From positions 451,740 through 515,739 of the forward strand of contig OY970181.1 in NCBI GenBank assembly GCA_963708045.1: a stretch of 64,000 bases of DNA. The letters are read 5' to 3'. The notes under the pieces were generated by a model. The model was not told where the DNA came from. It searched no databases and saw nothing but the letters and a program-made list of their open reading frames with translations. The DNA comes from an uncultured bacterium (GTDB lineage: Bacteria > Patescibacteriota > Patescibacteriia > CAIQCM01). Made by a program: the position numbers and the translations under genes. Every line of letters starts with the position of its first letter. Position 1 is the first letter of the stretch. Positions 9,184 to 51,416 of this stretch are shown in pieces.

Positions 9184-10006
9184 ACTTCGCGGACAGCACA
9201 TTCTCGTGAACAAGGACGTTGCTTTAAAAATTGTTGAAGCCGCCGCCCTTACACCTACGACGACGGTTTTGGAAGTCGGCCCCGGACTGGGCGTTTTAAC
9301 GCACCTAATCTTGCCGAAGGTCGGACAATATTTTGCCGTAGAACTTGACCCGCGTTTCGTTAAAGAATTAAATAAGGATTTTGGCGCTAACCCCAAAGTA
9401 AAAATAACAGAAGGCGACATTTTAAAAATAAATATTAGCGATCTTTTTTCTAACTCAACGCTAGCCCCTAACCCCTATACCCTAATTTCTAATCTCCCTT
9501 ATAACATCACCTCGCCTTTTTTTAAAAAAATTCTTACCGAAAAAAATCCCCCCGAACGGATGGTCATAATGATTCAACACGAGGTCGCCGAGCGCGTCTG
9601 TCTACGAGCCACGAGCCACGAGCCACGTGCCAACTTGTTCGGTTTAATGTGCAACCTTTACGCCGAATGCGAATATCTTCTTCATGTTTCACGCGGTTCA
9701 TTTAATCCGCCGCCCAAGGTGGAGTCCGCAGTCGTGTGTCTAAAACCATATTCTGACAAGGCGTTTTTTGAAAAATGGGGGATAGAACGTTTAGTTGCCG
9801 AAGAGTTTATTGCTTTTACCGCGGTATTCTTCAAAAACCAGCGTAAAATGATGAGTAATGCCTTTGGCAAAAGTCGCGCAGAAGCGATTAGAGCCGCCTT
9901 GGTTGCCATAAACGAACGCCCTGACGCACGTCCGGCTGATCTTTCACTCAAAAAGTGGGTAGCGTTGTGGAAAATCTCAGCCCACTCTTTGCAAAAGAGG
10001 GGGTAG
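9170..10006 (+). CDS. rsmA: 16S rRNA (adenine1518/1519-N6)-dimethyltransferase RsmA/KsgA; last 8 codons and the stop are supplied by a dispersed repeat element
   Basis: GQHILVNKDV...LEVGPGLGVLT...NLPYNITSPF catalytic motif; 3' end ...SAHSLQKRG* is encoded by repeat family A; in-frame (acgagcc)x3 tandem at about 9604-9627. Confidence 0.85.
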   Translation: MQFTKLRGQHILVNKDVALKIVEAAALTPTTTVLEVGPGLGVLTHLILPKVGQYFAVELDPRFVKELNKDFGANPKVKITEGDILKINISDLFSNSTLAPNPYTLISNLPYNITSPFFKKILTEKNPPERMVIMIQHEVAERVCLRATSHEPRANLFGLMCNLYAECEYLLHVSRGSFNPPPKVESAVVCLKPYSDKAFFEKWGIERLVAEEFIAFTAVFFKNQRKMMSNAFGKSRAEAIRAALVAINERPDARPADLSLKKWVALWKISAHSLQKRG

Positions 10007-10090
10007 GGGGAGTTCGTTCGCGAAGTAACAACTTTAACGCAAAAAACAGAACTCTCCCTACCCTCCCTTTTACCAAAGGGAGGACTAGAT
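9976..10090 (+). repeat. MITE/REP-like element family A, copy A (L arm - spacer - R arm)
   Basis: cccactctttgcaaaagagggggtagggggagttcgtt ... aaaacagaactctccctaccctcccttttaccaaagggaggactag; the arms are imperfect inverted repeats; other copies at 35.9, 57.1, 58.2 and 61.5 kb. Confidence 0.8.
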
Positions 10091-10146
10091 TTCTCGCTTA
10101 TTTTTAGCTTCGTTTCAGGCAAAAGGTATTTCGCATCATTGATATT

Positions 10147-10175
10147 AGACATTGATCGTTCGTGTCTGCTATAAT
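10147..10175 (+). promoter_or_regulatory. sigma70-like promoter for the TSP3-repeat / giant-protein operon
   Basis: TAGACA-N17-TATAAT about 12 nt upstream of ATG 10188; the attagaca motif also recurs upstream of 8029. Confidence 0.45.
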
Positions 10176-10187
10176 CCACTAATATAT

Positions 10188-10814
10188 ATGTCCGGAAAAA
10201 CGTCGCAAATTTTTGGCGTAATTCTGTTTGTTGCCGTTGGCGTCTCGGCGATCTTTCTGAGTATTAAACAGTCAACGCAAAAAATAAATAGTCCGTTTGC
10301 GGCAGGTGACCGCACTGCGCTTGAACAATTGAATGAAAATGATTCAACTGTTTTAAAAACCAAAGACACTGACGGTGATGGTCTTTCCGATTATGATGAA
10401 ACAAATGTTTATCGCACCTCTCCTTATCTTAAAGACACCGACTCCGACGGTCTTTCCGATGGCGAAGAGTTAAAAAACAACACCGACCCAAATTGTCCGC
10501 AAGGAAAAACTTGTGCCAACCCGACCCCAGTGAATAATCAAATTCCGTCTGACTCCGAAATAAATTTTAACGGGCTTATGAATGAACAGGCTGGTCTGGA
10601 GGCGCCTGTAAATACTTCAGCCGATGCGTTAAATGTAAACACATCCACCGCGCCAACTGCGGCCGAAGTCAGGGCGATGCTTATCAACGCCGGTTTGGAC
10701 GAACAATCGCTCAAGGGGATAAGCGACGTTGATTTGCTTCAGCTTTACAACGACTCGCTTAAAGAAACGACTACGACAAACGCTAACGTAAACGGAAATA
10801 AAAATACTCCGTAA
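10188..10814 (+). CDS. secreted/anchored protein with thrombospondin type-3-like Ca-binding repeats
   Basis: N-terminal TM/signal MSGKTSQIFGVILFVAVGVSAIFL; DTDGDGLSDYDE and DTDSDGLSDGEE repeats; stop 3 nt before the giant gene. Confidence 0.65.
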   Translation: MSGKTSQIFGVILFVAVGVSAIFLSIKQSTQKINSPFAAGDRTALEQLNENDSTVLKTKDTDGDGLSDYDETNVYRTSPYLKDTDSDGLSDGEELKNNTDPNCPQGKTCANPTPVNNQIPSDSEINFNGLMNEQAGLEAPVNTSADALNVNTSTAPTAAEVRAMLINAGLDEQSLKGISDVDLLQLYNDSLKETTTTNANVNGNKNTP

Positions 10815-10816
10815 AA

Positions 10817-13800
10817 ATGAATTATTTTAAAAACAAAAAAAATTTTCTGGCCTTGGCGGCTATATTGTTAGTTGTTCTAAGTTGTGGTTTTGTTTTTCCA
10901 AAACAAGCGGCTGCGATTCCGGTAGAGGTCACCGTGGACGCGCAGGCAACGCAAGAACAAATAATGAACAAAGCGGTAGACGCGACCATGGACAGTTGGA
11001 AACTCGCAACGACGCAGGCGCTTATAACGGCTTTGGATATGGCCACGCAAACAATGGCAAAAAATTATGCCACCTGGCTTGCGACCGGCGGCGCCTCGCG
11101 TAGTCCGCTCGCCTGGCTCAAGTCGCTTGGCAAAATTGCTGGCGATTCGTATGCTAACGCGGCCTCGGATTTTTTAAATACCTTAGCCGTTAAATACACT
11201 GGCTACGGCCTTTGTCAACCAGTTGACCCGCAGATAACTCTTAATATTAAATTAGGAATTTTCCGCGATCTTCAGCCGTCCAAGCCAAAATGTACATGGA
11301 ATCAGCTTTCAAAAAATTACGATACGATGAAGAACACGCTTCAGACCGGAGCTTTTCTTAAGAATTTCTCCGTGGCTTTTCAGCCGGCGCAAAATGATAT
11401 TGATAACGCGCTAACTTTACACTATGCCGCGCGCAATGAAGCGCAAAAAACCAGCAGTCTTACTATTTTAGACGCGACTAAAGCCGGCGGCTTTTCTGAT
11501 TTGACCAGTCTGATTTCTGGCGATATAAAAACGCCGGCGTCAATGATTCAGGAAAATTTGTCCATCGTTGAAAAATCGGCCGATGACACCAACAAGCATA
11601 AATTTGAAGCAACAATCGGCGCTGTTGACGTGATGAAAAGCGCAGCGTCGGGTATTGCCGCGAACGCCGGAAAAATGTTTTTAAATACTCTATCCACTAA
11701 GTTGGTTGATAAATATACCAAAGGGGGAATGTTTTCGCTTGCCGGCGCGATTTGCGCAACTAGGCTTGCGGGTGAACTTGACGTATGCAAAAAAAACGGC
11801 GACTCCGGCGTTCCGGATACGGTCGCGCTTGGCGCTAACGCCGTTGCTTTGGCCGACGCTTACTACACGTCAATTTTTACCGCAACGCCAAGCACTAATT
11901 CGGACTATAGTTTGTTGGCTGATCTAATTGCTTGTCCTGACGGTGTGGCGCGCAACGTTTATAATTGCGCTATGGATCAGCAATTTGCAAACGCGCTTCA
12001 AAAACAAACCACGGGCGGTTATTTGACCGTTGAACGAGCTCTTCTTCAGGGCATTATTCCCAATAATGCCATTATTGGAAAAGGAAATCCTGACGATGGG
12101 ACGCGTGAGTGTTATACCAAAGGATATTGTTATACCAATTTGCGAAAATTGCGCCGCGCGGACATTGTTCCTGTCGGTTGGGAGTTGGCGGCTGAGGCAA
12201 TCGGCACCAGACAAGGCGTAACGCTGAGAGAGGTAATGTCAAGATTTAATGATTGTAATTCATCGGGCAGCATTGATGGGACACATCCATATTGTCACCT
12301 GATTGATCCAGATTGGGTTTTAAAAATACCGCTTGAACGATGTAATGCGCTTGTGAGTGGTCAGACGCTTGAAGCAACCGGCGCCCCTGATCGCGCCCAA
12401 GTCTGTACCGATGTTAGTACTTGTATTTCTGAAGATACAAACGGCAAGTGCACTGGCGGATATGGATACTGCACGCGGGAAAAGGGTGGTTGGTCAGTTA
12501 ATGCCGATTCGTGTCCGTCGCAATATGGAAGTTGTGAAGCTTACGCTAAAACCAACGTTGCTGATGGTGAAGTTGATCAAAACGGCGCTTGGCTTTCAAA
12601 TACTTTAGACGCCAAAGCGTGCACGGCCACGACCGCTGGTTGTCGCGCCTTTGCTATTAATAAAAGTTTTGGGAAATGGGTTGACAACAAGCGTCTTTAT
12701 ATAACTTCATCGGCGCCAGTTTGCGAAGCTTCGGCCGCTGGTTGCGCAGCCCTCCAAGACGCCGCAACAACTTCAACACGTAATTTAATTTCCAACCCGA
12801 GTTTTGAAAACGCGCGCGCCGACGGACTTGCCGTTAGTTGGCTTGGTTTGGGCGGCGCTTATGTTGCGAGTGACGTTGTTAATGCTTTTGACGGCAAGGC
12901 GTCTTATCATGTTCAAGGCGATGGGCTTAAGCTCGGCGGTTATAATTACGGCCAACCTACCGACGCCGATCATTATGGCGAAGTTGTTGTCCAGCCAAAG
13001 TCGGTTTACACGTTTTCTTTTTACGCCAAAGGCAGTGGTACGGGCACGCTCACAATGAAGGCTTTTGATTCGCCTTTTTACGGAGCTGATCATGCTTGCG
13101 ACAATGGCACAAATACCACCAAACCGTCTTGTCTTCAAAATATGACGGCGGATGTTGGGATTCTTCCAGCTTGTGCAACAACCGGTTCGGGAGCTGTAAG
13201 CTGTACGATTATTGATAATTTTGATTTTGGAACTGCGGTTCCAAAATCCGCTTTTGGTTTTAACTTCCCGCTATCTTCCGGCTATGAGCGTTACACGATG
13301 ACTTTTGCCACCTCAAGTAATACTCACTATCTAGATTTCCTCTTCAATGGCGGTGATTTTTATCTGGACGCCATTCAACTGGAACTTGCGCCGTCGGCAA
13401 CAACTTTTCACGTTGGTGGATCGGATTTAAATGGTACGACGTCTAATATAAAAATTCCGCCGGCCTACTTAAAATGTTCTGGCGATGAAAAAACTGATCC
13501 TGCTGATTGTAAAAAATACGCCGCCGCCTGTCGCGCCACCGAAGCTGGTTGCGATGGTTTTACACCAGTTCTTGGTGGAACCACAATCCCAGGCGTTGTG
13601 AATGCTACCGATATTTGTCCGGCGGTTTGTGTTGGTTACAGTACGTTTAAACAGGAGGCGACGCAGTGGGAAGTGACAGCTACCGATACGGTGCGTTTTC
13701 CAAAATATTTTATTCCGTCAACTGGAAAATCTTGTTCGCTTCCTGACGTTGGTTGCGATGAGTTTACTAATTTAGAAAAAGTCGCCGCGGGTGGCGAATC

Positions 13801-16800
13801 AAAAAATTATTTTACTTTCCTTCGCGCCTGTCGCAAGTCTGATCAGGCGAACGAATCCACCTTCTTTATTTGGGAAGGCTCTGACACCTCTGGTTATCAA
13901 CTTAAGTCGTTTGTTCTGCGTACTGGCCCCGCGACCGACACGCGAATGAGTATTGTAAGCGCGGCGGGAGATACGTCGCCCGCAAACGGACCGACTTATA
14001 TTCGCACGACTGACGCGTCCAAATGTTCGTCGGCGATTGTTAATCTAGCGGCGACTGATCCCAATTACAATCCTGATTGTCGTGAATTTATTAACGCCAA
14101 TGGCGATCGTTATTATCGTCTGCTTTCGCGAACGATTAGCTCCACCGATGAGTGCAATAATTTCCGCAAAACAATTTCTGCTGAGGCTGATTGTGTTGGC
14201 ACGGGCGGTATTTGGGATGCAAACAGTTGTACATACGAAGGTTTGTCAGCGGAAAGCATAACCTGCCAAGCGCAAGTCAACGGTTGTCGTCTTTACACCG
14301 GTAATAACGGCGCCAACACCGAAACGATTTTGTTTGATGATTTTGAAAGCGGTTCAAACGGCTGGGTCGGTGGACAAATTTCTGGCGAAGCAACGGTTGT
14401 TGGCGGGCATTCGCTTGCATCGTCAAACGTACCGCCCAACGGAACCGTTGACGCGATAGCCTATAAACCCCTTGTTGGTGTTGACGGAACAAGTATCCTT
14501 AAAAAGGGGAAATCTTACACGGTGACCGTTTGGGCAAAGGGAAAGGGCAGTTTTGGTGCAGGGATTCTTCCTAATTCTAGGAATTTTGGCGGTGGGAAAA
14601 TTTATATTTTAAATGGTGATTATTCAAATACTTTGGCTTTGACGTCCAATTGGCAAAGATATGTTTTGGGACCGGTCTTTATTGATTCGGATTTGTCTAG
14701 CGAGGCAGTTCTTAATTTTTTCTTTGCTGGGAAAAATATTAACGATATTGATTATCTTGACAATATAGAAATTACGGCAACAAATGGCCAGTTTGCGATT
14801 GTTAAGGATTCGTGGAAAACGCCGGACGTTTGCGATAAGACCGTGGACGGCGCGCCTTTGCCGCAAGCTCAGCTTGGTTGCGCCGCTTACAATAATACCG
14901 CCGGCACGATTACCAATCTTAAATCGTTTACCAGCCTTTGCCGGAACAGTGCCATTGGCTGCAAGGCATTTATTGATCGCGCGGGCACAGTCTCGCCGTT
15001 TACTGGTTCGTATAATGTTCGTTGCGAAACCGCGAGCTCGGCCGATGTTCTTGTTTCCACACCATGCGTGATTGGTACAGAAACGCTTTGCACAATTTCG
15101 GCCAATAGCTCTTTCTGTCGCTTTAACAAAGATGGAATTTTGCCCGCGAGCACGCCGGCCTTTAAGATTGTAAGCAATGTTGGCAACGCCGCCGCTCCTG
15201 ATATTTTTGCTGTCCCCGCCGACACAATACGTTACTTTGTTGCCAAAGAAGAAAATAATTGCGAACGCGCGGCCGTCGGTTGCACTGAGCTTGGCAAAAT
15301 TGAATACGGAAAAACTTCCACCTGTACGCTCGCGGGGGGAGTAGTCTGTAATGTAAAAAGTGGCTGTGCTTGCACCGGTGTTTCTGATAGTATCTTGCAA
15401 ACAAAAACCAATCCGGCAGTCGCCTGTTTTGTGGCTAAAGGTGATACCTCCTGTACTTATTCTGTTGATCCAAACAAGCCTTCATTTCCTGCAAGTTCGG
15501 TTTACCGAATTGTAAAACCCGATAATTTTGCCAAAGGCGATTTGTGTAACGCCGACGCGGTTGGTTGCGATGCATGGACGTCTGGCGCTGGCACGACTCA
15601 ATACTTTAAAAATCCGGGCGATGTTCTTTGTGAATATAAAAGCAACGTCATTGTGGCTGGAACAGAATCAAGCGGTTGGTTTAAGAAAAATTCAAACGAA
15701 CCGTGCGATCCAAAATTTGTCGTTACCGGTTCAACCTTTGGGATTCACAAAAATCTTGATGAGTACTATGCCAATTTTGCTGGCGTTTGTATAACGTCGG
15801 CGGCCGGTTGTACCGAATATCGCGACACCTTTGACCAATCGGTGCTTGGTGGTAAGTCATACTTCTTTATTAAAAACAACAAGATTACCGACGCGTCGGC
15901 AAACTGTGCCAAAGGTGCTTCCAATAAAAAAGGCTGCGTTCTCTTTAATGATCAGTCAAACCCGAGCGCGATTTGGAATGCCGCCGCGACTTATGACGCG
16001 AGCGCCAAAAATAATTTTGATTTTACGCCGCCAGTTTCTACCGCTGGAACAGCGACACCAAATGACGCCAATATTGTGCTTGAAGCCCAACTTGACCGTA
16101 CTTGTTCCGAATGGTTGGAGTGTAACAGTTGGGAAACGGTTAAAAATTCGGCAAACGGGCAAACGGTTTCGCAATGCTTGTCGCTGGGCTCGTGTATAGA
16201 AAAAGACGCGAACGGAAACTGCGCCAAGTGGCAAGACAACGGTGTTGGCACATTGCTGGCCGAAACTTATGCTAGCCGGCCGGTGGTTTTTGGTTCGCCG
16301 GACTTTACAGGTTATTCCGCCCCGGGTCTTGGATCACTCGGTACGGCGCGGCAGATTATTGCGAGTGTTGGCGCGGATTATGCTGGCAACGCGCTTTCGG
16401 TTTCCGGAAAGAATTTTGCCCAATCCTGCAAGTCATATCCCGAAGCCAGTGCGCCGTTTTCCCAAGGCTTGGCGCCAAAAGGCGGAAATGTTTGCGACTT
16501 GCCAAATGGTAATCCGACCGGAAAAACTTGCGACTGTTCGTATCGCAAAGTTTCTTACAGTGGTGGTCTTAATAAATATTTCCCACCTACAGCCGAAACC
16601 AGTGATTATCCAATTAGGGGACAGGTTTTGCTTCAGCCGGCGGAAATTCCTTCGGCGGTTTGTGTTGGTGGTGCTGTGGAAAAAGAGGGTAAAAAGTGTA
16701 ACCCGCTTGCCGCGGATCAAGAAAACGAGTGTCCCGACGGAACTTGCACTAAGATTTCAAAAATTGAGTCGGTGATTGGCGGAAAAGGATATTGCTTGGA

Positions 16801-19393
16801 GTATGACTCGTCTATTGGCAGTGGGACAATGGTGAATGGGGTAGACCCGGGCGCTTGCCTCACTTGGTTCCCAATTGATCAGCCAAACGGCAAGGATATT
16901 CTTAATCAATTTGCTTCAGCCGCTTTTGTCCCAAATCCGGGTCAGGAACGCTATTGCGCCGCCCCGCTTAAAGCCTGTGGTGCCGACCTTTGCGACAATG
17001 GCAGTGAACAATATAACTTCTGCAAAAAAATTAAAAAAACTCAATACAGCGTTCCGCCTCCGATAGGTGGATATAAAGATGGTGGCAGTTGCGCGAACAG
17101 TGTTAATTATCCAAGCGATTGCGGTGCTGAAACACCCTCGCCGTGGTGCGACAATACTGCACGGAAGAACACAAAAATAACTGATGCCGGAAGTAAGAGT
17201 ATGTGCAGTTATATGATTAGCCAGGCTTGTTCCGTGGCTGGCGCTCAAACGGTTTGTCAAAATAATATTAAAAAAGCATATCCAGATCAGTGTGGTACCG
17301 ATGCGAATTTTGATGATGTTTATGGTGGGGATAATTTTCATCAAGACTGTTTTGATATGCGCGAGTCTTGCGTTAATAGTCCGTTTTTAAGATCGACCAA
17401 CTGTCAATCGCTGATTGCCCCTGGTGCTGATTGTGACGATCTTAAACGCAAAGATACGCCAGAACAGGTTATAACCAATGAGCTAATTCAAGCGCGCATT
17501 ATTACCTGCGCCGTGCTGATTGGCGCTAGCGTTTGTTTGCCAGTAACGCCAGCACAATGCGAAAGCTTGGGCAAAATATATTGCACCAATGACAGCGAAT
17601 GCAAGGCCTCGGTGCCAAGCGCCAGCTGTCAGGCGGTTAAGGAAATTGCCGTTAATAATACTGAATATACGGCCAATGAATTTGGCAAAGGAACAGTAAA
17701 TAGTCCCGACCATAATGCTTATGACTATCCGCCAAACGCCCACTCGCTTGGTTGGTCAACAGAAATGAATAGCAACGGAAATAATAAAGCCTACACGGTT
17801 GATGGTGTTTTGCAGTTTGCCGTTAGCACGGCACCCGAAAGTGTTTCCGGTCCGTGGTCAGACTATAAGAGTAATGATGATAGCGGTAGCAAAAGACAGC
17901 CAGTTGATTTTGAAACCGGACATATCATTAGCGGTTATCCGGCCGATTTTACGGGAATGTATTATATAACCGAAAAAGAAATGGGCACGGTTAATTATGA
18001 TTTGGTTTATCCAGCGCTTCTTCTCCAAAGCCAGCTTTCGCACATTACAATTGCTGTTGCCTCTAAGCAGAACGAACTTTCTAATATTTGTTCTTCGGAT
18101 TTTTCTTGGACAAAGTTTGGTTTGGCTGTCGGTGCGGGTAATGGTTTAGGGGTCTTTATTTCGCCGGTTACGATTGTTGTTGGTTTGTTTGCTGGTTGGT
18201 TTTGGGACAGCGAATGTTCACACCTAAACCTTGGCTATACTTTTTATAGCAATAACGATGATGAGAATTTTACCAAAAATTTTGCCGTGCTAAGCACTTC
18301 AAACGGCTGGTCGGCAACGCTCGCTGGTAAAGAAGGTAACGCAACCTTTAAAGCCTTGTTTAGTAATACCACACCGGTTCGTCTTACCGGAATGCGTGTG
18401 GAATTTCTTGATAATGTCACTAAGGGCTACTTTTACATTAACGGCGCTAATTATCACCTAGAAGACCGGCGTGATGGTAAAGACCAAAACAAGGTTGACT
18501 CGCCAGCCTGCGGCCTAGCTGGCTATATTGGTTCTTCAAACCCACAAGCGGAAAAAAATATTCCAACCGCTTTTACCAATCGTCTTAATTCAATTAAAAA
18601 TTACGACGCTTCGGTTACGGCTTTTGCCGACATAAACGATGCTAGTGGCAAGCCGCCAACAATTACTTATAACAACAAAAATTGTCCCTGGGGTGTCTTT
18701 ACCTACCCCGATCCGGCCTCTATTATTTTGGATAGCACGATAAACAGCGGCACGCGCACCCAGTGTCAGTTTGGCAAGGGCGCGATCTTTAGTTCGTGGG
18801 GCGCGCTTAAGCGTTTGTATCAAAATATTTGGGATTGGCGTTTGTTTAACGAAGACCCGGTTGGTTCCGACCCAACTGGCGTTAAGCCCGGCGGCTTTGC
18901 CTTTACTCAGCCTTATAATTCCAACGGTTTGCCGATTGATAATTCTGGCACCTCGCCAGCTGACAGTGGGATTAATGGTTCAATGCCAAGTGTAAGCAAT
19001 ATAAAAATTAACGGCTCGGGTGATCCGGTTAATGCGGTTGCGCCGTTTAAGGCTGACCTAAAGTTTTATGCTGGCGCCGACGCCAACCATATGCCGCTTC
19101 GTTCCATTAGAATTGACTGGAACGACGGGACGGTTTATGATTCCGGCATTTATAATTCGTTTAAAAACCATTTGTCTAATTGCGCTGCAAACGACGCGGC
19201 GGCGTCAAGTTTTGCGCTTGCGCCATCGGCTTGCGACACAACGCCATTTTCCTTTTCACATGTTTACACTTGTGCAAGCGACAGTTGTGTTTTTACCCCA
19301 ATCATTACCGTCGGCGACAATTGGCGCATAGGGAACGCTCTTTACACCGCCGTGGCCATTGCCCCGACGATTACCCTTAAAAAAGCCGAGTAG
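10817..19393 (+). CDS. giant secreted cysteine-rich repeat protein (2858 aa) with an N-terminal signal peptide and a hydrophobic segment near the C-terminus
   Basis: Single uninterrupted ORF; signal MNYFKNKKNFLALAAILLVVLSCGFVFPKQAAA; at least 9 copies of a [AVI]GC-x-[AE]-[FWYL] module (AGCRAF, AGCDGF, VGCDEF, NGCRLY, IGCKAF, VGCTEL, VGCDAW, AGCTEY, AGCAAL); TM-like FGLAVGAGNGLGVFISPVTIVVGLFAGWFW. Confidence 0.85.
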   Translation: MNYFKNKKNFLALAAILLVVLSCGFVFPKQAAAIPVEVTVDAQATQEQIMNKAVDATMDSWKLATTQALITALDMATQTMAKNYATWLATGGASRSPLAWLKSLGKIAGDSYANAASDFLNTLAVKYTGYGLCQPVDPQITLNIKLGIFRDLQPSKPKCTWNQLSKNYDTMKNTLQTGAFLKNFSVAFQPAQNDIDNALTLHYAARNEAQKTSSLTILDATKAGGFSDLTSLISGDIKTPASMIQENLSIVEKSADDTNKHKFEATIGAVDVMKSAASGIAANAGKMFLNTLSTKLVDKYTKGGMFSLAGAICATRLAGELDVCKKNGDSGVPDTVALGANAVALADAYYTSIFTATPSTNSDYSLLADLIACPDGVARNVYNCAMDQQFANALQKQTTGGYLTVERALLQGIIPNNAIIGKGNPDDGTRECYTKGYCYTNLRKLRRADIVPVGWELAAEAIGTRQGVTLREVMSRFNDCNSSGSIDGTHPYCHLIDPDWVLKIPLERCNALVSGQTLEATGAPDRAQVCTDVSTCISEDTNGKCTGGYGYCTREKGGWSVNADSCPSQYGSCEAYAKTNVADGEVDQNGAWLSNTLDAKACTATTAGCRAFAINKSFGKWVDNKRLYITSSAPVCEASAAGCAALQDAATTSTRNLISNPSFENARADGLAVSWLGLGGAYVASDVVNAFDGKASYHVQGDGLKLGGYNYGQPTDADHYGEVVVQPKSVYTFSFYAKGSGTGTLTMKAFDSPFYGADHACDNGTNTTKPSCLQNMTADVGILPACATTGSGAVSCTIIDNFDFGTAVPKSAFGFNFPLSSGYERYTMTFATSSNTHYLDFLFNGGDFYLDAIQLELAPSATTFHVGGSDLNGTTSNIKIPPAYLKCSGDEKTDPADCKKYAAACRATEAGCDGFTPVLGGTTIPGVVNATDICPAVCVGYSTFKQEATQWEVTATDTVRFPKYFIPSTGKSCSLPDVGCDEFTNLEKVAAGGESKNYFTFLRACRKSDQANESTFFIWEGSDTSGYQLKSFVLRTGPATDTRMSIVSAAGDTSPANGPTYIRTTDASKCSSAIVNLAATDPNYNPDCREFINANGDRYYRLLSRTISSTDECNNFRKTISAEADCVGTGGIWDANSCTYEGLSAESITCQAQVNGCRLYTGNNGANTETILFDDFESGSNGWVGGQISGEATVVGGHSLASSNVPPNGTVDAIAYKPLVGVDGTSILKKGKSYTVTVWAKGKGSFGAGILPNSRNFGGGKIYILNGDYSNTLALTSNWQRYVLGPVFIDSDLSSEAVLNFFFAGKNINDIDYLDNIEITATNGQFAIVKDSWKTPDVCDKTVDGAPLPQAQLGCAAYNNTAGTITNLKSFTSLCRNSAIGCKAFIDRAGTVSPFTGSYNVRCETASSADVLVSTPCVIGTETLCTISANSSFCRFNKDGILPASTPAFKIVSNVGNAAAPDIFAVPADTIRYFVAKEENNCERAAVGCTELGKIEYGKTSTCTLAGGVVCNVKSGCACTGVSDSILQTKTNPAVACFVAKGDTSCTYSVDPNKPSFPASSVYRIVKPDNFAKGDLCNADAVGCDAWTSGAGTTQYFKNPGDVLCEYKSNVIVAGTESSGWFKKNSNEPCDPKFVVTGSTFGIHKNLDEYYANFAGVCITSAAGCTEYRDTFDQSVLGGKSYFFIKNNKITDASANCAKGASNKKGCVLFNDQSNPSAIWNAAATYDASAKNNFDFTPPVSTAGTATPNDANIVLEAQLDRTCSEWLECNSWETVKNSANGQTVSQCLSLGSCIEKDANGNCAKWQDNGVGTLLAETYASRPVVFGSPDFTGYSAPGLGSLGTARQIIASVGADYAGNALSVSGKNFAQSCKSYPEASAPFSQGLAPKGGNVCDLPNGNPTGKTCDCSYRKVSYSGGLNKYFPPTAETSDYPIRGQVLLQPAEIPSAVCVGGAVEKEGKKCNPLAADQENECPDGTCTKISKIESVIGGKGYCLEYDSSIGSGTMVNGVDPGACLTWFPIDQPNGKDILNQFASAAFVPNPGQERYCAAPLKACGADLCDNGSEQYNFCKKIKKTQYSVPPPIGGYKDGGSCANSVNYPSDCGAETPSPWCDNTARKNTKITDAGSKSMCSYMISQACSVAGAQTVCQNNIKKAYPDQCGTDANFDDVYGGDNFHQDCFDMRESCVNSPFLRSTNCQSLIAPGADCDDLKRKDTPEQVITNELIQARIITCAVLIGASVCLPVTPAQCESLGKIYCTNDSECKASVPSASCQAVKEIAVNNTEYTANEFGKGTVNSPDHNAYDYPPNAHSLGWSTEMNSNGNNKAYTVDGVLQFAVSTAPESVSGPWSDYKSNDDSGSKRQPVDFETGHIISGYPADFTGMYYITEKEMGTVNYDLVYPALLLQSQLSHITIAVASKQNELSNICSSDFSWTKFGLAVGAGNGLGVFISPVTIVVGLFAGWFWDSECSHLNLGYTFYSNNDDENFTKNFAVLSTSNGWSATLAGKEGNATFKALFSNTTPVRLTGMRVEFLDNVTKGYFYINGANYHLEDRRDGKDQNKVDSPACGLAGYIGSSNPQAEKNIPTAFTNRLNSIKNYDASVTAFADINDASGKPPTITYNNKNCPWGVFTYPDPASIILDSTINSGTRTQCQFGKGAIFSSWGALKRLYQNIWDWRLFNEDPVGSDPTGVKPGGFAFTQPYNSNGLPIDNSGTSPADSGINGSMPSVSNIKINGSGDPVNAVAPFKADLKFYAGADANHMPLRSIRIDWNDGTVYDSGIYNSFKNHLSNCAANDAAASSFALAPSACDTTPFSFSHVYTCASDSCVFTPIITVGDNWRIGNALYTAVAIAPTITLKKAE

Positions 19394-19396
19394 TCT

Positions 19397-19440
19397 GTTA
19401 TTGCGAGGAGTGAGCCGAAGTGAACGACGTGGCAATCTCC
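19397..19440 (+). repeat. REP-like repeat family C, copy 1
   Basis: ttgcgaggagtgagccgaagtgaacgacgtggcaatctcc; near-identical cores at 39153-39196 and 42125-42168. Confidence 0.65.
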
Positions 19441-19621
19441 ACTTTTTTCACACCCTCGCCCGAGTGCGGGAGAGGGTGGCCGAAGGCCGGGTGAGGGTGT
19501 ACGGCAATCTCAATAAATTTAAAAAACCCCCACACAGTGTTTAATGCTCATCGGATGAGCGCACTGTATGAGGGCTTCTTCGTATCGCTTCAATCATCTT
19601 ATTCCCTTCTTGTTGTTCGGT

Positions 19622-20197
19622 TCAGTTAGAACCGCTTCTTGGTGTCATTGTGAAGATGCCAAGGTGTTCGCCTGTCTTGATGTGGTAGAACTTGCCTTTG
19701 ACCACGAGGTTGATACAACCCGTTGTAAAGTTGTACCAACAGGTCTTGGTAAAATCAACCACTTTGCCTTCAAATCGGCCGTTTCCAATGGTAAACGTCC
19801 ACGAACCGTCTTTGGTGATGTTGCCGGCAAAGTTCGCCGGATCTGATGGCCGACCATTAACTATATCAGCCGTGAATGATCCACCTGTCTGGCTGGTTAC
19901 GTTAAATTCGTAACCGTAGAAGTTGTCGCCAACTTCTTTCTCCATGGCAATTTCCCAAGTGTTCATGGTCAGCGTCAGGTAGCCATCGGTTGTGGTGCTG
20001 GTGGCGGTGCTGGTGTCGGTCGTGATACTGGTGTCAGTGTCGGTTGTGGTGACGCAGTTAGGGCTTGCGCCGCCGGTTCCCTCAACGCAGATCGTTGGGG
20101 GATCGGATCCGTCACCGCCGCATCCGAAAAGGGTTGTGCCGCCAAAGAAGGCAGCGATAAGGATTGCGAATACAACAAACAGATTCTTCTTGAACAT
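19622..20197 (-). CDS. hypothetical secreted lipoprotein with a Thr-rich linker
   Basis: Signal + lipobox ...TTLFGCGG; TTTDTDTSITTDTSTATSTTTDG low-complexity linker. Confidence 0.6.
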   Translation of the reverse strand: MFKKNLFVVFAILIAAFFGGTTLFGCGGDGSDPPTICVEGTGGASPNCVTTTDTDTSITTDTSTATSTTTDGYLTLTMNTWEIAMEKEVGDNFYGYEFNVTSQTGGSFTADIVNGRPSDPANFAGNITKDGSWTFTIGNGRFEGKVVDFTKTCWYNFTTGCINLVVKGKFYHIKTGEHLGIFTMTPRSGSN

Positions 20198-20561
20198 GAT
20201 GTACCTCCGTCTTGGGTTGCAAATCTACCGCCGCTTTTTGGAGCGACGAATTGAAACGATGAATTGTAAAGAGCGCTGAAACGTGTAAATGGCCGTATTA
20301 GCCAGAGTACAATTTCCCGCGTTTAGTGTACTTAAACCATACTCCTATTTCCGGTTTTTGTCAAGCCTTTTCCCCTCCTTTTTGGCTATTTCTAGTTATT
20401 TTTTTAACATTTTTTCGTCGCCTTTTAAGTTTTTTAGTTTTGTTAGTTTTAATTTAACAATAGTTATATTGCGGAGTTAATTTATAAATCTTTCTTTGCT
20501 AAAACAGCCTGATGATGATACCTTTTTAAGGTATTTACTTTTGGTTCCGTGATTAATTTAC

Positions 20562-22097
20562 ATGAAATTTATTGGCCATAAAAATAAATTTGCTATTTAT
20601 CATATGAATAGCAATAGCTTCCTAGGTGATTGCACCTCTGTTGTTTATCGTCCTAGTAAAAAAGAGATAACAAATGATCATTTATTGGTGAATCACTTAC
20701 TTGTCATTATCAAAAGTCGTGTAGATTTAAAAAAATTACTTACCATTGAAGATATCAGAAAGGCGAATATTTTTGTAAACGATAAACCTGTTTTATTACG
20801 ATTGTCTTCGGAGTGTCTGTTTAGTTCTTTTGGAGATACGCATTGCGACTGCGAGTCACAACGGATTTGTACGCTTCGAGAAATCCATAAATATGGTGAA
20901 GGGATATTTATTCATATACCCCAGGAAGCGCAGGGTAATGGTTTGTTCTATAAGGCAATGGAATTAGAGCTTCAAGTGAACGGGTTTTTGCCTGATGGAA
21001 AATTCGTTGGTCAGAAAAGCGTCACCGAAGCAGCAAAGCTTATGCTGGGTGATTTGAAAAAATTAGATAAAAGAAAGTATTTATCAATAAAAACAGTCTT
21101 TGAAAGTCTGAACCTTCGTAAATATAAGTTCGCGTTGATGAGTGAAAATCCGAAGAAGAAAAAATTTCTTGAAAAAATTTTGGGAGTTAAGATTAGTTCA
21201 ACATACAAGGTCAAGGGTCATATAACCATTGAAAATATCGGAGAATATTTGTCCAAGCTTTATTCAAAAAGTTTTGTTTTGTCCGACGAAGAGCTAAAGG
21301 ATATATACGGTATCATTAATTCAAGTAAAGAAATTCCAGAGCGAGCCGCCTCTGTATTGCGTTTCATTAGCGAGGATATAAAACTAGGAAAACATTTTAA
21401 TGCTAATGGCGAATTATTGGAACATTTGATCGGGCTACTCAACATTAAGAAAAAACGCGAGTTGATTCAGGGTCTCGATCTTTTTCAAGACTCGGAAGCT
21501 TATGAGGAATACCACACGGAACTACGCATTGATACTGATGGCTTGGAAAAACTGTTCAAGTCTGGGATATTGATAAGTGATGAATTGTTGCGTTATGAAG
21601 AGAACTTTTTTTACGACCTGCCTTACTTCTCATTAATTCCTTGCCGGACTCTTAAAATACGAAAAGCGTTCAAATTGAATGACCTCAAACATCCATTACA
21701 ATGCGAGTTAATCTATAAAATCCCAATCAAAGACAAAAATAATTTGATCAAGTGTATTGGGATTGATAATGAAGATATTATCAATTTAATTGATGTTTCC
21801 CTTAAGGATTATAATGTTCATGCTTTGCCTGTTTTTACGCATAAGGTAGTAAATAAATCTAAAAACATAAAAACTTTGATCAAACGGTATTCACATGACT
21901 TGCGGGTCTTGAGCCTGATGGGAGAAAAGAACGAGGTTGATATTTTAATGAACGAAATTAATAAACTACTAAAGACTTCGGAAATCAACATACTTTCTGA
22001 TCAGAGCCATGCAAATGCTAAGACGCCTACTAACTTCAATTGGAATAAATTAGCGCTTGAGGAAACTAATTTCTATAAAAAATATTTCATTGGTTAA
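20562..22097 (+). CDS. hypothetical protein with a GTP cyclohydrolase II (RibA)-like N-terminal domain; first gene of the AT-rich island
   Basis: GDTHCDCESQRICTLREIHKYGEGIFIHIPQEAQGNGLFYKAMELELQ parallels the RibA zinc/catalytic region (CDCG-Q...EGRG...GL..K..AY.LQ); C-terminal about 350 aa unassigned; AT-rich codon usage. Confidence 0.5.
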   Translation: MKFIGHKNKFAIYHMNSNSFLGDCTSVVYRPSKKEITNDHLLVNHLLVIIKSRVDLKKLLTIEDIRKANIFVNDKPVLLRLSSECLFSSFGDTHCDCESQRICTLREIHKYGEGIFIHIPQEAQGNGLFYKAMELELQVNGFLPDGKFVGQKSVTEAAKLMLGDLKKLDKRKYLSIKTVFESLNLRKYKFALMSENPKKKKFLEKILGVKISSTYKVKGHITIENIGEYLSKLYSKSFVLSDEELKDIYGIINSSKEIPERAASVLRFISEDIKLGKHFNANGELLEHLIGLLNIKKKRELIQGLDLFQDSEAYEEYHTELRIDTDGLEKLFKSGILISDELLRYEENFFYDLPYFSLIPCRTLKIRKAFKLNDLKHPLQCELIYKIPIKDKNNLIKCIGIDNEDIINLIDVSLKDYNVHALPVFTHKVVNKSKNIKTLIKRYSHDLRVLSLMGEKNEVDILMNEINKLLKTSEINILSDQSHANAKTPTNFNWNKLALEETNFYKKYFIG

Positions 22098-22101
22098 AAT
22101 T

Positions 22102-22740
22102 ATGCCTGTTGAAAGAGAAATAAAATACTTTTTTCCGTTATCAAGATTTGGAGAGCTGCGCTCTATTTTAAGCATGTTTGAATATACGGGGACAACTCAT
22201 GAGATGACGTCAATGTTTGATAATCCTAACCCCGACTTAAGCTTTTATCACCCGAAAGTTGATGGTCGGTTAAGATTAAGGGTGGCGAAATGTTTGGATG
22301 GTGATACACAAAACAAAACAACTGGTTTGTTATCTTGGAAACAGCGAATTCCCGAACATGCCCACTCGGCGATTCGTCATGAGCACGAGGTGGAATGTGA
22401 GATTTCTGATAATTCAATTGCAAATATGCAAACTATTCTTCAGGATATTTTAAAATGTCCGCTAATTTCGTCGTATGAACGAGAGCGATCTCATTATTAT
22501 GACGATGGTTTAAAAATAACTCTTGACCGTTTTCCTTATGGGTTAATGTTGGAAATTGAATTTGCTAACGAAACGATTGGTCACAGCGCACTGGAAAAGA
22601 TCTTGGGAAAAATTGGCCTAAAAGAAGATGACGCTTCAAGATTATCCTGTGATGATATGTATAAGCGCCTATGTAAGTTGCAGAATAAACAAATTAAGGA
22701 GCATATCCACTTTGGTGACAAAGATATACCTTTAATATAA
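22102..22740 (+). CDS. CYTH-domain (triphosphate tunnel metalloenzyme) protein
   Basis: N-terminal ExExK (VEREIKYFF), RLRLR, HEHEVECEI (ExExE), ITLDRFPYGLMLEIEF (D..G..LEIE); start at ATG 22102 rather than the overlapping track start. Confidence 0.65.
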   Translation: MPVEREIKYFFPLSRFGELRSILSMFEYTGTTHEMTSMFDNPNPDLSFYHPKVDGRLRLRVAKCLDGDTQNKTTGLLSWKQRIPEHAHSAIRHEHEVECEISDNSIANMQTILQDILKCPLISSYERERSHYYDDGLKITLDRFPYGLMLEIEFANETIGHSALEKILGKIGLKEDDASRLSCDDMYKRLCKLQNKQIKEHIHFGDKDIPLI

Positions 22741-22745
22741 TTTAA

Positions 22746-23397
22746 ATGGCCACTTTTAATAAAAATAAATTGATCGTCTTTGATCTAGACAAAACCATAA
22801 CTGCTGGTTATAGCTGGGCGCGCTTGAATTTTGGCCTAGGTATGACGCGAGACGAAGATATTAGTTTGTCTGAAGAATATTATCAAAAAAACAAATTCAC
22901 AGAATGGACTTCTCGGGTATTAGATATTTATAAAACGCGAAGTATTCCCACTAAGAAAAATGTTCAAAATATATTGAAGGACTTTGAATATACATCTGGC
23001 GCCGAAGAGTGTATAAAAAAATTAAAAAAAATGAATTTTAAAATTGCTATTATTTCTTCTGCGCCAGATGTTTTTGTTAAATTAGTTAGTAATAAACTAA
23101 AAATCAAGAATTTTCGTTTTAATAATACACTAATCTTTGGTGAAAACAATTTTTTAATTAATATTTCAACGGATGGGGAGGATAAGTATACAAAATTTGC
23201 ACATTTGAAAGACCTCTGCCATTTAAGAAAAAGTGGATATGGAAGAAACAGTTATTGTGGGTGACGGGGATAATGATGAATTGTTGTTTAAAGCCTCAAA
23301 ATATTCAATCACCTTCAATGATAGTAAGTTTAAAGATGTGGTTTGGAAGACAATCGACAGCCTTGCCGACCTACCTAAAATTTTGAAGAATAGATAG
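22746..23397 (+). pseudogene. HAD-superfamily phosphatase interrupted by a 1-nt frameshift in an A5 run (about 23222-23230)
   Basis: Motif I FDLDKTIT in frame 0 ends ...LRKSGYGRNSYCG*; the conserved motif IV ...VGDGDNDELLF continues in the +1 frame to a stop at 23397; removing one A from agaaaaagt restores a single ORF. Confidence 0.6.
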
Positions 23398-23527
23398 TTG
23401 TTTCTGATCCTGTAGTAATTTGTTAACGAAATAATTTGGACAAGCAGAGATCTAATCAGCGGCGAGCAACAAAACTCGCCGTCGTTTCTTATAGTTTAAT
23501 AATGAATATGCGCAGTTTTTAATATTA

Positions 23528-23588
23528 GTTTTGCATAATTTTTAGCCCTCCCATCTTTCCACGGTCGTGGAAAGATGGGAGGCGAGGG
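23528..23588 (+). repeat. 62-bp hairpin repeat family B, copy 1 (downstream of the PaaX-like gene)
   Basis: ttgcataatttttagccctcccatctttccacggtcgtggaaagatgggaggcgaggg; 13-bp palindromic stem cccatctttccac / gtggaaagatggg. Confidence 0.75.
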
Positions 23589-23609
23589 AAAAAGTGTTGC
23601 AATTAAAAA

Positions 23610-24179: not shown

Positions 24180-24232
24180 AATTTTTAGCCCTCCCATCTT
24201 TCAACGGTCGTGGAAAGATGGGATGGGGTAGA
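24171..24232 (+). repeat. 62-bp hairpin repeat family B, copy 2 (overlaps the PaaX-like gene start)
   Basis: ttgcataatttttagccctcccatctttcaacggtcgtggaaagatgggatggggtag; direct repeat of copy 1 about 640 bp away with 3 mismatches. Confidence 0.75.
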
Positions 24233-26932: not shown

Positions 26933-27063
26933 CAATTTCGCAAACTTCCTTTTCAGCCGCTCCAATGCTATCGGGGCGGCTGATTTTCTTATATTTTTGC
27001 GGATAAATTTGGCCTATGAGCAAAATATTCTTTCTGCTATACTATATTAAATTACTGCGCACA

Positions 27064-29610: not shown

Positions 29611-29617
29611 ATAATCC

Positions 29618-31426: not shown

Positions 31427-31493
31427 ATGAAATAATTAAGAAGTTTGCTATTAATCTTCTAACGTCTAATCTCTAACGTCTAATCTCTAAAAA

Positions 31494-31931: not shown

Positions 31932-31996
31932 ACAATATGAATCATGTTCCACGCACCATATACCACCAATGATGAGCGGTTAATGGTTCATGATTC

Positions 31997-32701: not shown

Positions 32702-32702
32702 T

Positions 32703-34574: not shown

Positions 34575-34578
34575 TAAT

Positions 34579-47328: not shown

Positions 47329-47369
47329 CGGTAAACTTGCGAGGTTCTTTATTTAAAAGCTTTCCATTT

Positions 47370-48011: not shown

Positions 48012-48015
48012 AAAA

Positions 48016-49746: not shown

Positions 49747-49767
49747 TAATTTTAAGCAAAAAATTAC

Positions 49768-51380: not shown

Positions 51381-51416
51381 TGTTCGCTATCGGAAAACGA
51401 TCTCGTCCCGTATTTA

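What the first reader, a model, noticed from the sequence alone, without database searches (positions are those of the whole stretch)
10147..19393. Two-gene operon: TSP3-repeat Ca-binding protein plus a 2858-aa cysteine-rich secreted giant protein
The 8.6 kb ORF is uninterrupted and starts with a clear signal peptide. It contains at least nine copies of a G-C-x-[AE]-[FWYL] cysteine module spaced about 100-250 aa apart, and a single hydrophobic helix near residue 2430 of the 2858-aa protein. It is preceded, 3 nt upstream, by a small protein with two thrombospondin type-3-like DxDxDGxxDxxE calcium loops, and a TAGACA-N17-TATAAT promoter lies in front of the pair. Giant surface proteins are candidate host-attachment factors in episymbiotic CPR bacteria, and the repeat architecture looks like an undescribed repeat family.
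Basis: seen in the sequence. Interest (0 to 1): 0.55.

Follow-up and report, generated by a model that had tools for sequence, protein, structure and literature searches.

The report
Conserved giant cysteine-rich surface protein pair
A 300-kDa secreted, disulfide-rich protein carrying sugar-binding modules, always paired with a small membrane-anchored calcium-binding partner, is conserved in hundreds of uncultured ultrasmall (Patescibacteria/CPR) species; it is probably their main surface attachment structure, but no database or paper I could find describes it.

Summary
Both ORFs are real. An independent assembly gives the same 2858-aa protein.

The giant has a cleavable signal peptide, 111 Cys and two CBM_4_9-type jelly-roll modules. 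It also has 8 strict (11 relaxed) copies of a C-x6-C loop motif, C-x4-[AV]-G-C-x-x-aromatic, against about 0.01-0.2 copies expected by chance.

This is a large family, not an orphan. It forms 1354 clusters at 50% identity and occurs in at least 583 species genomes, mostly Uhrbacteria-type Patescibacteria. The family is collinear over aa 1-2050, and about 60 Cys are invariant. Other Cys are gained and lost strictly in pairs, which points to disulfides.

In 82 of 83 loci, a partner gene sits directly upstream. It encodes a TM helix, two TSP3 loops and a C-terminal helix.

The C-terminal third is hypervariable: 25% identity where the rest is 64%. Homologs swap in other lectin modules.

The hydrophobic helix near aa 2444 is unique to this protein, so it is not a family anchor. 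The repeat is a short module of about 15-60 aa, not a large domain.

Pfam, NCBIfam, PDB and Foldseek recognise nothing except the CBMs and the TSP3 loops.

My best reading is a tethered, disulfide-stapled, glycan-binding surface fibre. Its function is inferred, not shown.

The parts
9986..10079 (+). Long hairpin downstream of ksgA. It is terminator-like and separates the pair from the upstream housekeeping genes.
   Evidence: RNA fold dG -50.4 kcal/mol, z = -5.3 against shuffles.
10146..10175 (+). Promoter-like site: TAGACA, 18-nt spacer, TG-n-TATAAT.
   Evidence: 11 of 12 matches, the best in 9800-20600. TAGACA-17-TATAAT is conserved upstream of the partner gene in L001, L002 and L007. Matches of 10/12 or better occur in 14 of 77 loci against 1 of 237 control windows.
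10188..10814 (+). Small partner gene (208 aa): N-terminal TM helix, two TSP3 Ca-binding loops, a Cys pair, a low-complexity linker and a C-terminal helical motif.
   Evidence: An ortholog lies directly upstream of the giant in 82 of 83 loci. TSP3_bac scores above the gathering cut-off in 9 of 10 orthologs.
10209..10265 (+). Hydrophobic helix of the partner (aa 8-26, IFGVILFVAVGVSAIFLSI), read as a signal-anchor.
   Evidence: Sequence. A hydrophobic N-terminus is present in all 5 aligned orthologs. Topology is inferred.
10365..10514 (+). Two TSP3 calcium loops (aa 60-71 and 83-94) followed by the invariant DPNC-x5-C (Cys103, Cys109).
   Evidence: Invariant columns in A1. Pfam PF18884.
10656..10763 (+). 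Conserved C-terminal helical motif of the partner (R162, L165, G169, L175, D180). It is the candidate docking element.
   Evidence: Invariant columns in A1; the motif is duplicated in L005. No Pfam match.
10817..19393 (+). Giant gene: 2858 aa. The mature protein is about 300 kDa with pI about 5.0 and 111 Cys.
10817..10915 (+). Signal peptide (aa 1-33), with predicted cleavage at AAA|IP.
   Evidence: Sequence. An N-terminal hydrophobic segment is present in most homologs. AxA is conserved.
10916..11896 (+). Conserved N-terminal region (aa 34-360), predicted as long helices. Family motifs: ASGGKG, G-F-x-L-C-x-P and ISG-x-x-KTPA.
   Evidence: Aligned in all 27 homologs. Consensus. AF2 predicts helices, but pLDDT is below 50. 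No PDB profile hit.
11897..12406 (+). Conserved alpha/beta domain (aa 361-530) with invariant R446, G454, E456, D497, P498, W500 and Cys pairs.
   Evidence: pLDDT 70-90. Invariant columns. No fold or sequence match.
12407..12778 (+). Cys-loop cluster 1 (aa 531-654): C-x6-C modules at Cys545, 566, 602 and 636.
   Evidence: These Cys are invariant in 27 or 28 of the 28 sequences.
12779..13426 (+). CBM-like jelly roll 1 (aa 655-870). It is optional in the family.
   Evidence: Foldseek matches CBM16/22/4/61 with prob 1.0. hhalign against CBM2 gives 96.7%. It is absent or replaced in about 8 homologs. P0023 carries two Laminin_G_3 domains in this region (aa 732-900 of P0023).
13469..14311 (+). Cys-loop cluster 2 plus a beta-rich conserved domain (aa 885-1165): modules at Cys898/905, 973 and 1150.
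   Evidence: pLDDT is 75-88 for aa 970-1160.
14312..14791 (+). CBM_4_9 module 2 (aa 1166-1325).
   Evidence: Pfam PF02018, E=1.2e-8, 35.9 bits against a 25.9-bit cut-off. Foldseek matches CBM16/22/4/29.
14819..16096 (+). Cys-loop cluster 3 (aa 1335-1760): modules at Cys1355 (half), 1375, 1482, 1577 and 1658.
   Evidence: S3 against S4: 89.5% probability over 60 columns.
16097..16966 (+). Conserved beta-rich region without the C-x6-C motif (aa 1761-2050).
   Evidence: Aligned in about 20-25 of 27 homologs. hhalign probability to the Cys-loop segments is about 5% or lower.
16967..18916 (+). Hypervariable region (aa 2051-2700). It includes the lineage-specific hydrophobic stretches aa 2228-2246 and 2444-2462 (nt 18146-18202).
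   Evidence: Alignable in only 3 of 27 homologs. Identity to P0002 is 25% here against 64% for aa 1-1740. The hydrophobic stretches are absent from all homologs.
19019..19366 (+). Conserved C-terminal domain (aa 2735-2850) with the motifs MPLR-x-[IV]-x-[IV]-DW-[GN]-DG, F-x-H-[VA]-Y-x-C and DNW(G).
   Evidence: The motif is found in 20 of 28 sequences. Any PKD-like resemblance is by eye only: no Pfam PKD hit at E<=10.

Best explanation
The two genes encode a conserved two-component cell-surface structure of Uhrbacteria-type Patescibacteria.

The giant protein is exported by Sec, and its signal peptide is cut off. Outside the cell it folds into a long multi-domain scaffold of about 300 kDa. The scaffold is stiffened by some 50 disulfides. 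These include about 11 short C-x6-C loop modules, each sitting at the start of a beta-rich sub-domain.

The scaffold displays lectin-type modules. Here these are two CBM_4_9 jelly rolls. In relatives they are F5/8-C, Laminin-G, PA14 or dockerin modules. It also carries a fast-evolving C-terminal third. Together these parts bind glycans or other ligands on a partner or host cell, or on a surface.

The giant has no membrane or wall anchor of its own. I propose it is held on the cell by the co-translated small partner. That partner has an N-terminal transmembrane helix, a Ca2+-loaded double TSP3 loop closed by a disulfide, and a flexible linker long enough to cross the wall. Its conserved C-terminal helix would dock onto the giant's conserved N-terminal helical region.

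Shown: the ORFs, the signal peptide, the domains, the motif statistics, the family size, the gene pairing and the paired gain and loss of Cys.
Inferred: the disulfides, the tethering role of the partner, glycan binding and host attachment.
For: - The ORF is intact and reproduced by an independent assembly. It has a signal peptide.
- CBM_4_9 scores above the Pfam cut-off, and both jelly rolls are recovered by Foldseek.
- Homologs carry F5/8-C, two Laminin_G_3, Dockerin and PA14 modules at equivalent places.
- About 60 Cys are invariant in 28 sequences that share 24-64% identity.
- Neighbouring Cys are gained and lost together: 432/438 both present in 20, neither in 8, one alone in 0; 1126/1138 gives 23/5/0; 1893/1905 gives 21/7/0.
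- CPR genomes are enriched in an MdbA-like oxidoreductase with an adjacent VKOR, so extracellular disulfide formation is plausible (bioRxiv 10.1101/335083).
- Identity to P0002 falls along the protein: 64%, then 47%, then 25%.
- No anchor motif was found in the giant. There is no Pfam anchor domain, the C-terminus ends in ...TITLKKAE, and the hydrophobic stretch is not conserved.
- A partner with a TM helix and two TSP3 loops lies directly upstream in 82 of 83 loci. The gap to the giant is 2 nt here.
- The pair has its own promoter-like site and an upstream hairpin.
- Papers on cultured CPR attribute attachment to giant or large surface proteins (PMC8080830; PMC11665869).
Against: - There is no experimental or expression evidence.
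- About 85% of the giant has no recognisable fold. The AF2 models are poor, with mean pLDDT 57-59.
- Three features are more typical of a core envelope component than of a host-range adhesin: 2000 collinear residues conserved across the family, no second locus among the 80 loci returned (each from a different contig), and stable synteny with Sua5-MFS-KsgA.
- CBM_4_9 modules usually accompany glycoside hydrolases, so an undetected catalytic domain cannot be excluded.
- The signal peptide could instead act as an uncleaved anchor.
Confidence: 0.5

Rival explanations
1. It is a structural envelope layer. The giant would be the main building block of the S-layer-like coat seen on ultrasmall CPR cells, and the small TM/TSP3 protein would be its membrane stalk. 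This is the logic of the archaeal SlaA/SlaB pair: a large canopy protein plus a small anchor, encoded in one operon.
For: - The family is present in at least 583 species genomes and forms 1354 clusters at 50% identity.
- No second locus appears among the 80 loci returned, each from a different contig.
- Its position next to housekeeping genes is stable.
- The promoter is near consensus.
- The mature protein is acidic, pI 5.0.
- The Ca-binding partner carries a TM helix.
- From my own knowledge, not re-read here: cryo-TEM of groundwater CPR shows a surface layer (Luef et al. 2015, cited).
Against: - Cys content is 3-5%, whereas bacterial S-layer proteins are typically cysteine-poor (general knowledge).
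- There are no SLH, CWB2 or other S-layer anchoring domains.
- At 300 kDa it is well above usual S-layer protein sizes.
- A hypervariable third and swapped lectin modules fit ligand recognition better than lattice formation.
- There is no evidence on abundance.
Confidence: 0.2
2. It is a secreted polysaccharide- or cell-wall-processing enzyme complex. The unannotated conserved regions, for example aa 361-530 or 1761-2050, would hide a new catalytic domain. The CBMs would then target it to a substrate such as host cell-wall glycans.
For: - CBM_4_9, CBM16 and CBM22 modules are typically appended to glycoside hydrolases (Pfam description; Foldseek targets).
- Invariant acidic residues (E456, D497, E555) lie in a confidently folded alpha/beta domain.
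- Giant proteins of predatory bacteria have been linked to cell-wall degradation (bioRxiv 10.1101/2023.11.21.568195, listed).
Against: - No catalytic family was detected by Pfam, NCBIfam, PDB sequence or profile searches, or Foldseek.
- The invariant positions are dominated by Cys, Gly, Pro and aromatic residues, which is a structural pattern.
- A hypervariable tail and a membrane-tether partner are not usual for enzymes.
Confidence: 0.12
3. It is an assembly artefact or a decaying pseudogene, and the cysteine motif is a chance pattern.
For: Nothing found here supports this. One homolog locus (L087) is fragmented, but neighbouring housekeeping genes in that locus are fragmented too, which points to sequencing errors in that contig.
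Against: - An independent assembly gives the identical 2858-aa product.
- More than 1000 homolog clusters have similar length.
- Homologs are collinear.
- The motif occurs at 40 to 600 times the shuffle expectation and is positionally invariant in orthologs.
Confidence: 0.01

Closest known systems
Bacterial TSP3 repeat proteins (Pfam PF18884), for example Myxococcus CglD and MtsD, and eukaryotic thrombospondin/COMP type-3 repeats
   Same: The small partner has two DxDxDGxxDxxE calcium loops above the Pfam cut-off. A Cys pair follows them, as in thrombospondin type-3 repeats. CglD and MtsD are also surface adhesion or cohesion components.
   Different: The partner is only 208 aa. It has a TM helix and a separate conserved C-terminal helix. 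Its scores against the CglD and MtsD equivalog models are 22-25 bits, against cut-offs of 400-800. It is therefore not a member of those families.
CBM_4_9 / CBM16 / CBM22 carbohydrate-binding modules
   Same: Two beta-jelly-roll modules at aa 655-870 and 1166-1325. They are supported by a Pfam hit above the cut-off and by Foldseek at prob 1.0 with TM 0.6-0.7 on the target.
   Different: They make up only about 13% of the protein and are not attached to any recognisable glycoside hydrolase. Ligand specificity is unknown. The first module is dispensable or replaced in some homologs.
Giant surface or adhesin-like proteins of episymbiotic CPR and DPANN (for example the 1392-4163-aa membrane proteins of Vampirococcus lugosii, PMC8080830)
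   Same: It is a very large secreted protein in a reduced-genome CPR bacterium, it carries interaction domains, and it is proposed to mediate attachment.
   Different: Those proteins are described with WD40, TPR, PKD, DUF11, integrin and fibronectin domains. This family has none of these. Instead it has a cysteine-loop scaffold, an obligatory TSP3 partner, and clade-wide syntenic conservation. I did not test for homology with the Vampirococcus proteins.
Sulfolobales SlaA/SlaB S-layer pair
   Same: The logic only: one large outer protein and one small membrane-anchored stalk protein, encoded side by side.
   Different: No sequence or fold similarity was found or tested. The domain of life, gene order, cysteine content and size all differ.
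Cellulosome dockerin-cohesin tethering
   Same: A duplicated Ca-binding loop motif is used to hold large CBM-bearing extracellular proteins on a cell. One homolog (P0024) even contains a Dockerin_1 domain.
   Different: The partner's loops match TSP3_bac, not Dockerin_1. No cohesin was detected in the giant. The analogy is untested.

Membership tests
Pfam TSP3_bac (PF18884), small partner | Match to the family HMM above the gathering score, with DxDxDGxxDxxE calcium loops | tested here: met
   41.1 bits against a 25-bit cut-off, two stretches. 9 of 10 orthologs also score above the cut-off.
NCBIfam CglD (NF033765) / MtsD (NF047639) equivalogs, small partner | Whole-protein score above the curated cut-off (400 / 800 bits) | tested here: not met
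   25 and 21.8 bits. Only the TSP3 loops match.
Pfam CBM_4_9 (PF02018), two modules of the giant | HMM match above the gathering score, and a beta-jelly-roll fold | tested here: met
   35.9 bits against 25.9. Foldseek matches CBM16/22/4 with prob 1.0 for both models. Sugar binding itself was not tested.
Sortase-anchored Gram-positive adhesins (LPXTG / MSCRAMM type) | C-terminal LPXTG motif followed by a hydrophobic segment and a basic tail | tested here: not met
   The C-terminus reads ...AIAPTITLKKAE, with no LPXTG and no terminal TM. The only internal hydrophobic stretches are not conserved.
RTX / LapA-type giant adhesins | Tandem Ig-like repeats, C-terminal RTX nonapeptides and a T1SS signal; no Sec signal peptide | tested here: not met
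   A Sec signal peptide is present. There are no RTX or Ig-repeat Pfam hits at E<=1. Self-BLAST finds no tandem repeats.
Bacterial S-layer proteins | SLH, CWB2 or a comparable wall-anchoring domain | tested here: not met
   No such Pfam domain at E<=1.
Bacterial S-layer proteins | Cysteine-poor composition (general knowledge) | tested here: not met
   3.9% Cys here and 2.5-4.9% across the family.
Bacterial S-layer proteins | High abundance and self-assembly into a 2-D lattice | not testable with these tools
   Needs proteomics, cryo-ET or in-vitro assembly.
PKD domain (C-terminal conserved domain) | Match to the Pfam PKD models | tested here: not met
   No PKD hit at E<=10 for the C-terminal segments of the window protein and four homologs. 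The WGDG / HxY resemblance is by eye only.
Glycoside hydrolase or lytic enzyme with appended CBMs | A recognisable catalytic domain | tested here: not met
   None found by Pfam, NCBIfam, PDB sequence or profile search, or Foldseek. The AF2 models are of low confidence, so a new fold is not excluded.

The most novel reading that the evidence does not exclude
The partner-plus-giant pair is the core of a previously unrecognised, clade-wide envelope organelle of Uhrbacteria-type Patescibacteria. This organelle could be their surface coat or their host-contact apparatus. It would be built on a new disulfide-loop (C-x6-C) repeat fold, and a Ca2+-dependent TSP3 tether would hold it to the membrane. 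The hypervariable C-terminal third would set host specificity.
Probability: 0.3. Interest if true: 0.7.

Novelty: new variant of a known kind. Interest (0 to 1): 0.5.

Why it matters
Almost nothing is known about how non-Saccharibacteria CPR bacteria build their surface or recognise partners, and none of the Uhrbacteria-type lineages is cultured.

This pair gives a concrete, testable candidate. It is conserved in hundreds of species genomes and consists of a membrane tether plus a 300-kDa disulfide-rich protein that carries lectin modules. It could serve as:
- a target for metaproteomics and cryo-ET;
- a marker for comparing host range through its hypervariable region and swapped lectin modules;
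- the seed for a new protein-family or repeat entry. About 85% of a family with more than 1000 clusters currently has no annotation.

Tried and rejected
- Self-BLAST of the giant found no internal repeats. Only module HMMs and hhalign revealed the short repeat.
- My first hhalign parsing failed and printed nothing. It was redone.
- PDB searches found nothing, both with the single sequence and with the N-domain profile.
- PHROGs and NCBIfam gave nothing for the giant.
- Foldseek against PDB (both models) and against BFVD returned only CBM-type jelly rolls. The hits to binary toxins, reelin and tail fibres have high rmsd and are driven by the same sandwich fold, so I did not use them.
- The AF2 models of aa 1-1170 and 1141-2170 had mean pLDDT of only 57-59. 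I therefore make no claim about the scaffold fold.
- The profile search with the N-domain alignment in the word-indexed database returned only 2 proteins and was uninformative. One of them, P0177, is a fragment in a contig whose neighbouring housekeeping genes are split too.
- Seven literature searches found no description of this family.
- The idea that the hydrophobic helix at aa 2444 anchors the protein was rejected because it is absent from all homologs.
- A lipoprotein reading of 'LSCG' in the signal peptide was rejected. That Cys is kept in only 2 of 28 sequences, and the lipobox is imperfect.
- A search for MdbA or VKOR genes among the window ORFs I scanned found none.

Full report
**1. 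What is in the sequence**

The region holds two co-oriented ORFs.
- The small one is listed from TTG 10152. The start that fits its orthologs is ATG 10188, running to 10814 and giving 208 aa.
- The giant runs 10817-19393 and gives 2858 aa.
- Two nucleotides separate the small gene's TAA from the giant's ATG.
- An independent Logan assembly carries a 100% identical 2858-aa product. The NCBI/ENA record calls the same protein 16 residues shorter.
- The ATG at 10817 gives a canonical signal peptide (KNKK, a hydrophobic core, AAA|IP), and homologs start the same way.

Upstream lie release factor, Sua5, an MFS transporter and KsgA, so this is a cellular genome. A very stable hairpin follows ksgA (dG -50 kcal/mol, z -5.3). 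After it comes the best promoter-like site of the region: TAGACA, 18 nt, TG-n-TATAAT at 10146-10175. The ATG at 10188 lies only 12 nt after the -10 box, so the transcript may be nearly leaderless. That last point is inference.

**2. The small protein**

It has four parts:
- a hydrophobic helix of about 19 residues at aa 8-26;
- two TSP3 calcium loops, DTDGDGLSDYDE and DTDSDGLSDGEE, followed by DPNC-x5-C;
- a low-complexity linker;
- a conserved helical C-terminal motif.

Pfam TSP3_bac scores above its cut-off, and does so in 9 of 10 orthologs as well. The matches to the CglD and MtsD models are far below their cut-offs and reflect only the loops.

**3. The giant protein**

Composition: 111 Cys (3.9%). 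The mature protein is about 300 kDa with pI about 5.

The only Pfam family is CBM_4_9. NCBIfam, PHROGs and PDB sequence search find nothing.

- Strict copies start at Cys602, 636, 905, 973, 1375, 1482, 1577 and 1658.
- Degenerate copies are at 566, 1150 and 1355.
- Shuffling gives 0.01-0.2 copies expected against 8 observed.

HMMs built from each module's orthologs find the other modules in register, but only over about 12-18 residues. Profile-profile comparison of the segments that carry the modules gives 40-90% probability over 20-60 columns. Segments without the motif give about 5% or less. The two CBMs match each other at 96.7%.

The repeat is therefore real and old, but it is a short unit of about 15-60 aa. 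It recurs at the start of beta-rich sub-domains. It is not a 100-250-aa domain.

**4. The family**
- A word-indexed search found 27 homologs of 1700-3800 aa at 24-64% identity.
- An exhaustive phmmer search with aa 1-1200 found 1354 clusters at 50% identity. Of these, 1101 have E<=1e-30, and nearly all members are 2500-3800 aa.
The best 80 are labelled Candidatus Uhrbacteria, Falkowbacteria, Parcubacteria or 'Patescibacteria group'.
- Many 'uncultured Gammaproteobacteria' labels come from one bulk submission and show the same synteny. I take these as placeholder names, but did not verify this.

The proteins are collinear over aa 1-2050. CBM1 (aa 655-870) and aa 1400-1550 are optional. Residues 2050-2700 are alignable in only three relatives. 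A C-terminal domain of about 100 aa is conserved again (MPLR..V.VDWGDG ... F.H.Y.C ... DNWG). That domain has no Pfam match, PKD included.

About 60 Cys are invariant in 28 sequences. The non-invariant ones are gained and lost strictly in neighbouring pairs, with 0 singletons for 432/438, 1126/1138, 1893/1905 and 373/384. This is the expected signature of disulfide bonds. CPR genomes are enriched in an MdbA-like oxidoreductase with an adjacent VKOR (bioRxiv 10.1101/335083), so the chemistry is plausible.

Against the closest relative, P0002, identity falls from 64% (aa 1-1740) to 47% (aa 1741-2083) to 25% (aa 2231-2836).

Homologs carry other lectin-type modules on the same scaffold: F5/8 type C, two Laminin_G_3, Dockerin_1 and PA14.

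The hydrophobic stretches at aa 2228-2246 and 2444-2462 occur in no homolog.

**5. The gene pair**

In six loci examined by gene calls, a 199-257-aa gene lies directly upstream of the giant, usually after KsgA. Five of these products align with the window's small protein through the TM helix, both TSP3 loops, the Cys pair and the C-terminal motif.

By tblastn, 82 of the 83 loci that have upstream DNA encode this partner immediately before the giant. KsgA precedes it in about 55 of them.

The closest relatives keep TAGACA-17-TATAAT in front of the partner gene. Matches of 10/12 or better occur in 14 of 77 loci against 1 of 237 control windows.

**6. Structure**

AF2 with the 28-sequence alignment gave mean pLDDT of 58.9 for aa 1-1170 and 57.2 for aa 1141-2170.
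- Confident parts: an alpha/beta domain at aa 361-500, both jelly rolls, and beta-rich blocks at aa 970-1160, 1390-1450, 1600-1640 and 1690-1750.
- aa 34-360 is modelled as long helices at low confidence.

Foldseek against PDB and BFVD returns only CBM16/22/4/29/61-type sandwiches and proteins that contain them. A profile of the N-terminal 530 residues finds nothing in PDB. The scaffold fold is therefore unassigned.

**7. Interpretation**

These facts point to an extracellular, disulfide-stabilised scaffold that presents ligand-binding modules. It has no membrane or wall anchor of its own.

The invariant upstream partner has what a tether needs: a TM helix, a rigid Ca-binding module, a flexible linker and a conserved terminal motif. 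My best explanation (confidence 0.5) is a tethered surface fibre used for binding glycans on partner cells or surfaces. This fits what is proposed for giant surface proteins in cultured CPR (PMC8080830; PMC11665869).

Clade-wide conservation and synteny with housekeeping genes keep a structural-coat reading alive (0.2). The high cysteine content, the lack of S-layer anchoring domains and the hypervariable third count against it.

A hidden enzyme (0.12) cannot be excluded while most domains lack confident models.

An artefact is excluded as far as sequence data allow.

**8. Novelty**

Giant surface proteins in CPR are a known kind. This family is not in Pfam, NCBIfam or PDB, and seven full-text searches found no description of it. 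Its distinguishing features are the conserved cysteine-loop scaffold, the obligatory TSP3 tether partner and a presence in hundreds of species. I rate it a new variant of a known kind, of moderate interest, with function still inferred.

Noticed in passing
window 25445-35861: A run of co-oriented ORFs of 495, 864, 602, 234, 623, 248 and 245 aa. Only the 623-aa product has a Pfam match: TraG P-loop / AAA_10 / DUF87, that is, a VirB4- or TraG-like ATPase. It looks like the type IV secretion-like cluster reported for Patescibacteria (title PMC12102498, seen; paper not read).
   Followed up: partly
window 20000-24000 and 46000-56000: GC drops to 0.34-0.37, and to 0.34-0.42, against 0.45-0.49 elsewhere. 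The first island (a GTP cyclohydrolase II-like gene at 20562-22097 and a HAD phosphatase at 22746-23264) sits between the giant and a PaaX_M gene (23610-24197, minus strand). In relative L001, the PaaX_M gene lies much closer to the giant. This suggests an insertion.
   Followed up: partly
window 19622-20197 (-): A convergent gene directly downstream of the giant encodes a lipoprotein-like product: a signal sequence, then FGCGG, then a Thr-rich linker. L001, L002 and L003 also have a lipobox protein in this position, at only 24-30% identity.
   Followed up: partly
window 9986-10079 and 19440-19500: G/C-rich inverted repeats (GAGGGGGTAGGGGGAG ... CTCTCCCTACCCTCCC) form a -50 kcal/mol hairpin after ksgA. 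Another inverted repeat (CACACCCTCGCC ... GGGTGAGGGTGT) follows the giant gene. They could be terminators or a dispersed repeat element.
   Followed up: partly
window 10170-10190: The -10 box ends 12 nt before the partner's ATG, and no Shine-Dalgarno sequence is visible. None is visible before the giant's ATG either. The transcript may be nearly leaderless, and the giant may depend on translational coupling.
   Followed up: no
window 10817-10864: The public NCBI/ENA protein (P0001, 2842 aa) starts 16 codons downstream of the ATG used here, which removes the basic n-region of the signal peptide. The Logan gene call uses the full 2858 aa. The deposited start is probably wrong.
   Followed up: yes
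L087 1-9319: A homolog locus in which the giant is split into ORFs of 889, 231 and 313 aa (and possibly more), and the leucyl-tRNA synthetase upstream is split as well. This is most likely a contig ridden with frameshift errors rather than a short natural variant.
   Followed up: partly
loci L008-L085 (record titles): About 30 of the best 80 genomes are titled 'uncultured Gammaproteobacteria bacterium isolate binchicken/SRP...', yet the ones I could check carry the same partner-then-giant arrangement (mostly with KsgA upstream) as the Uhrbacteria genomes. These taxonomic labels are probably placeholders.
   Followed up: no
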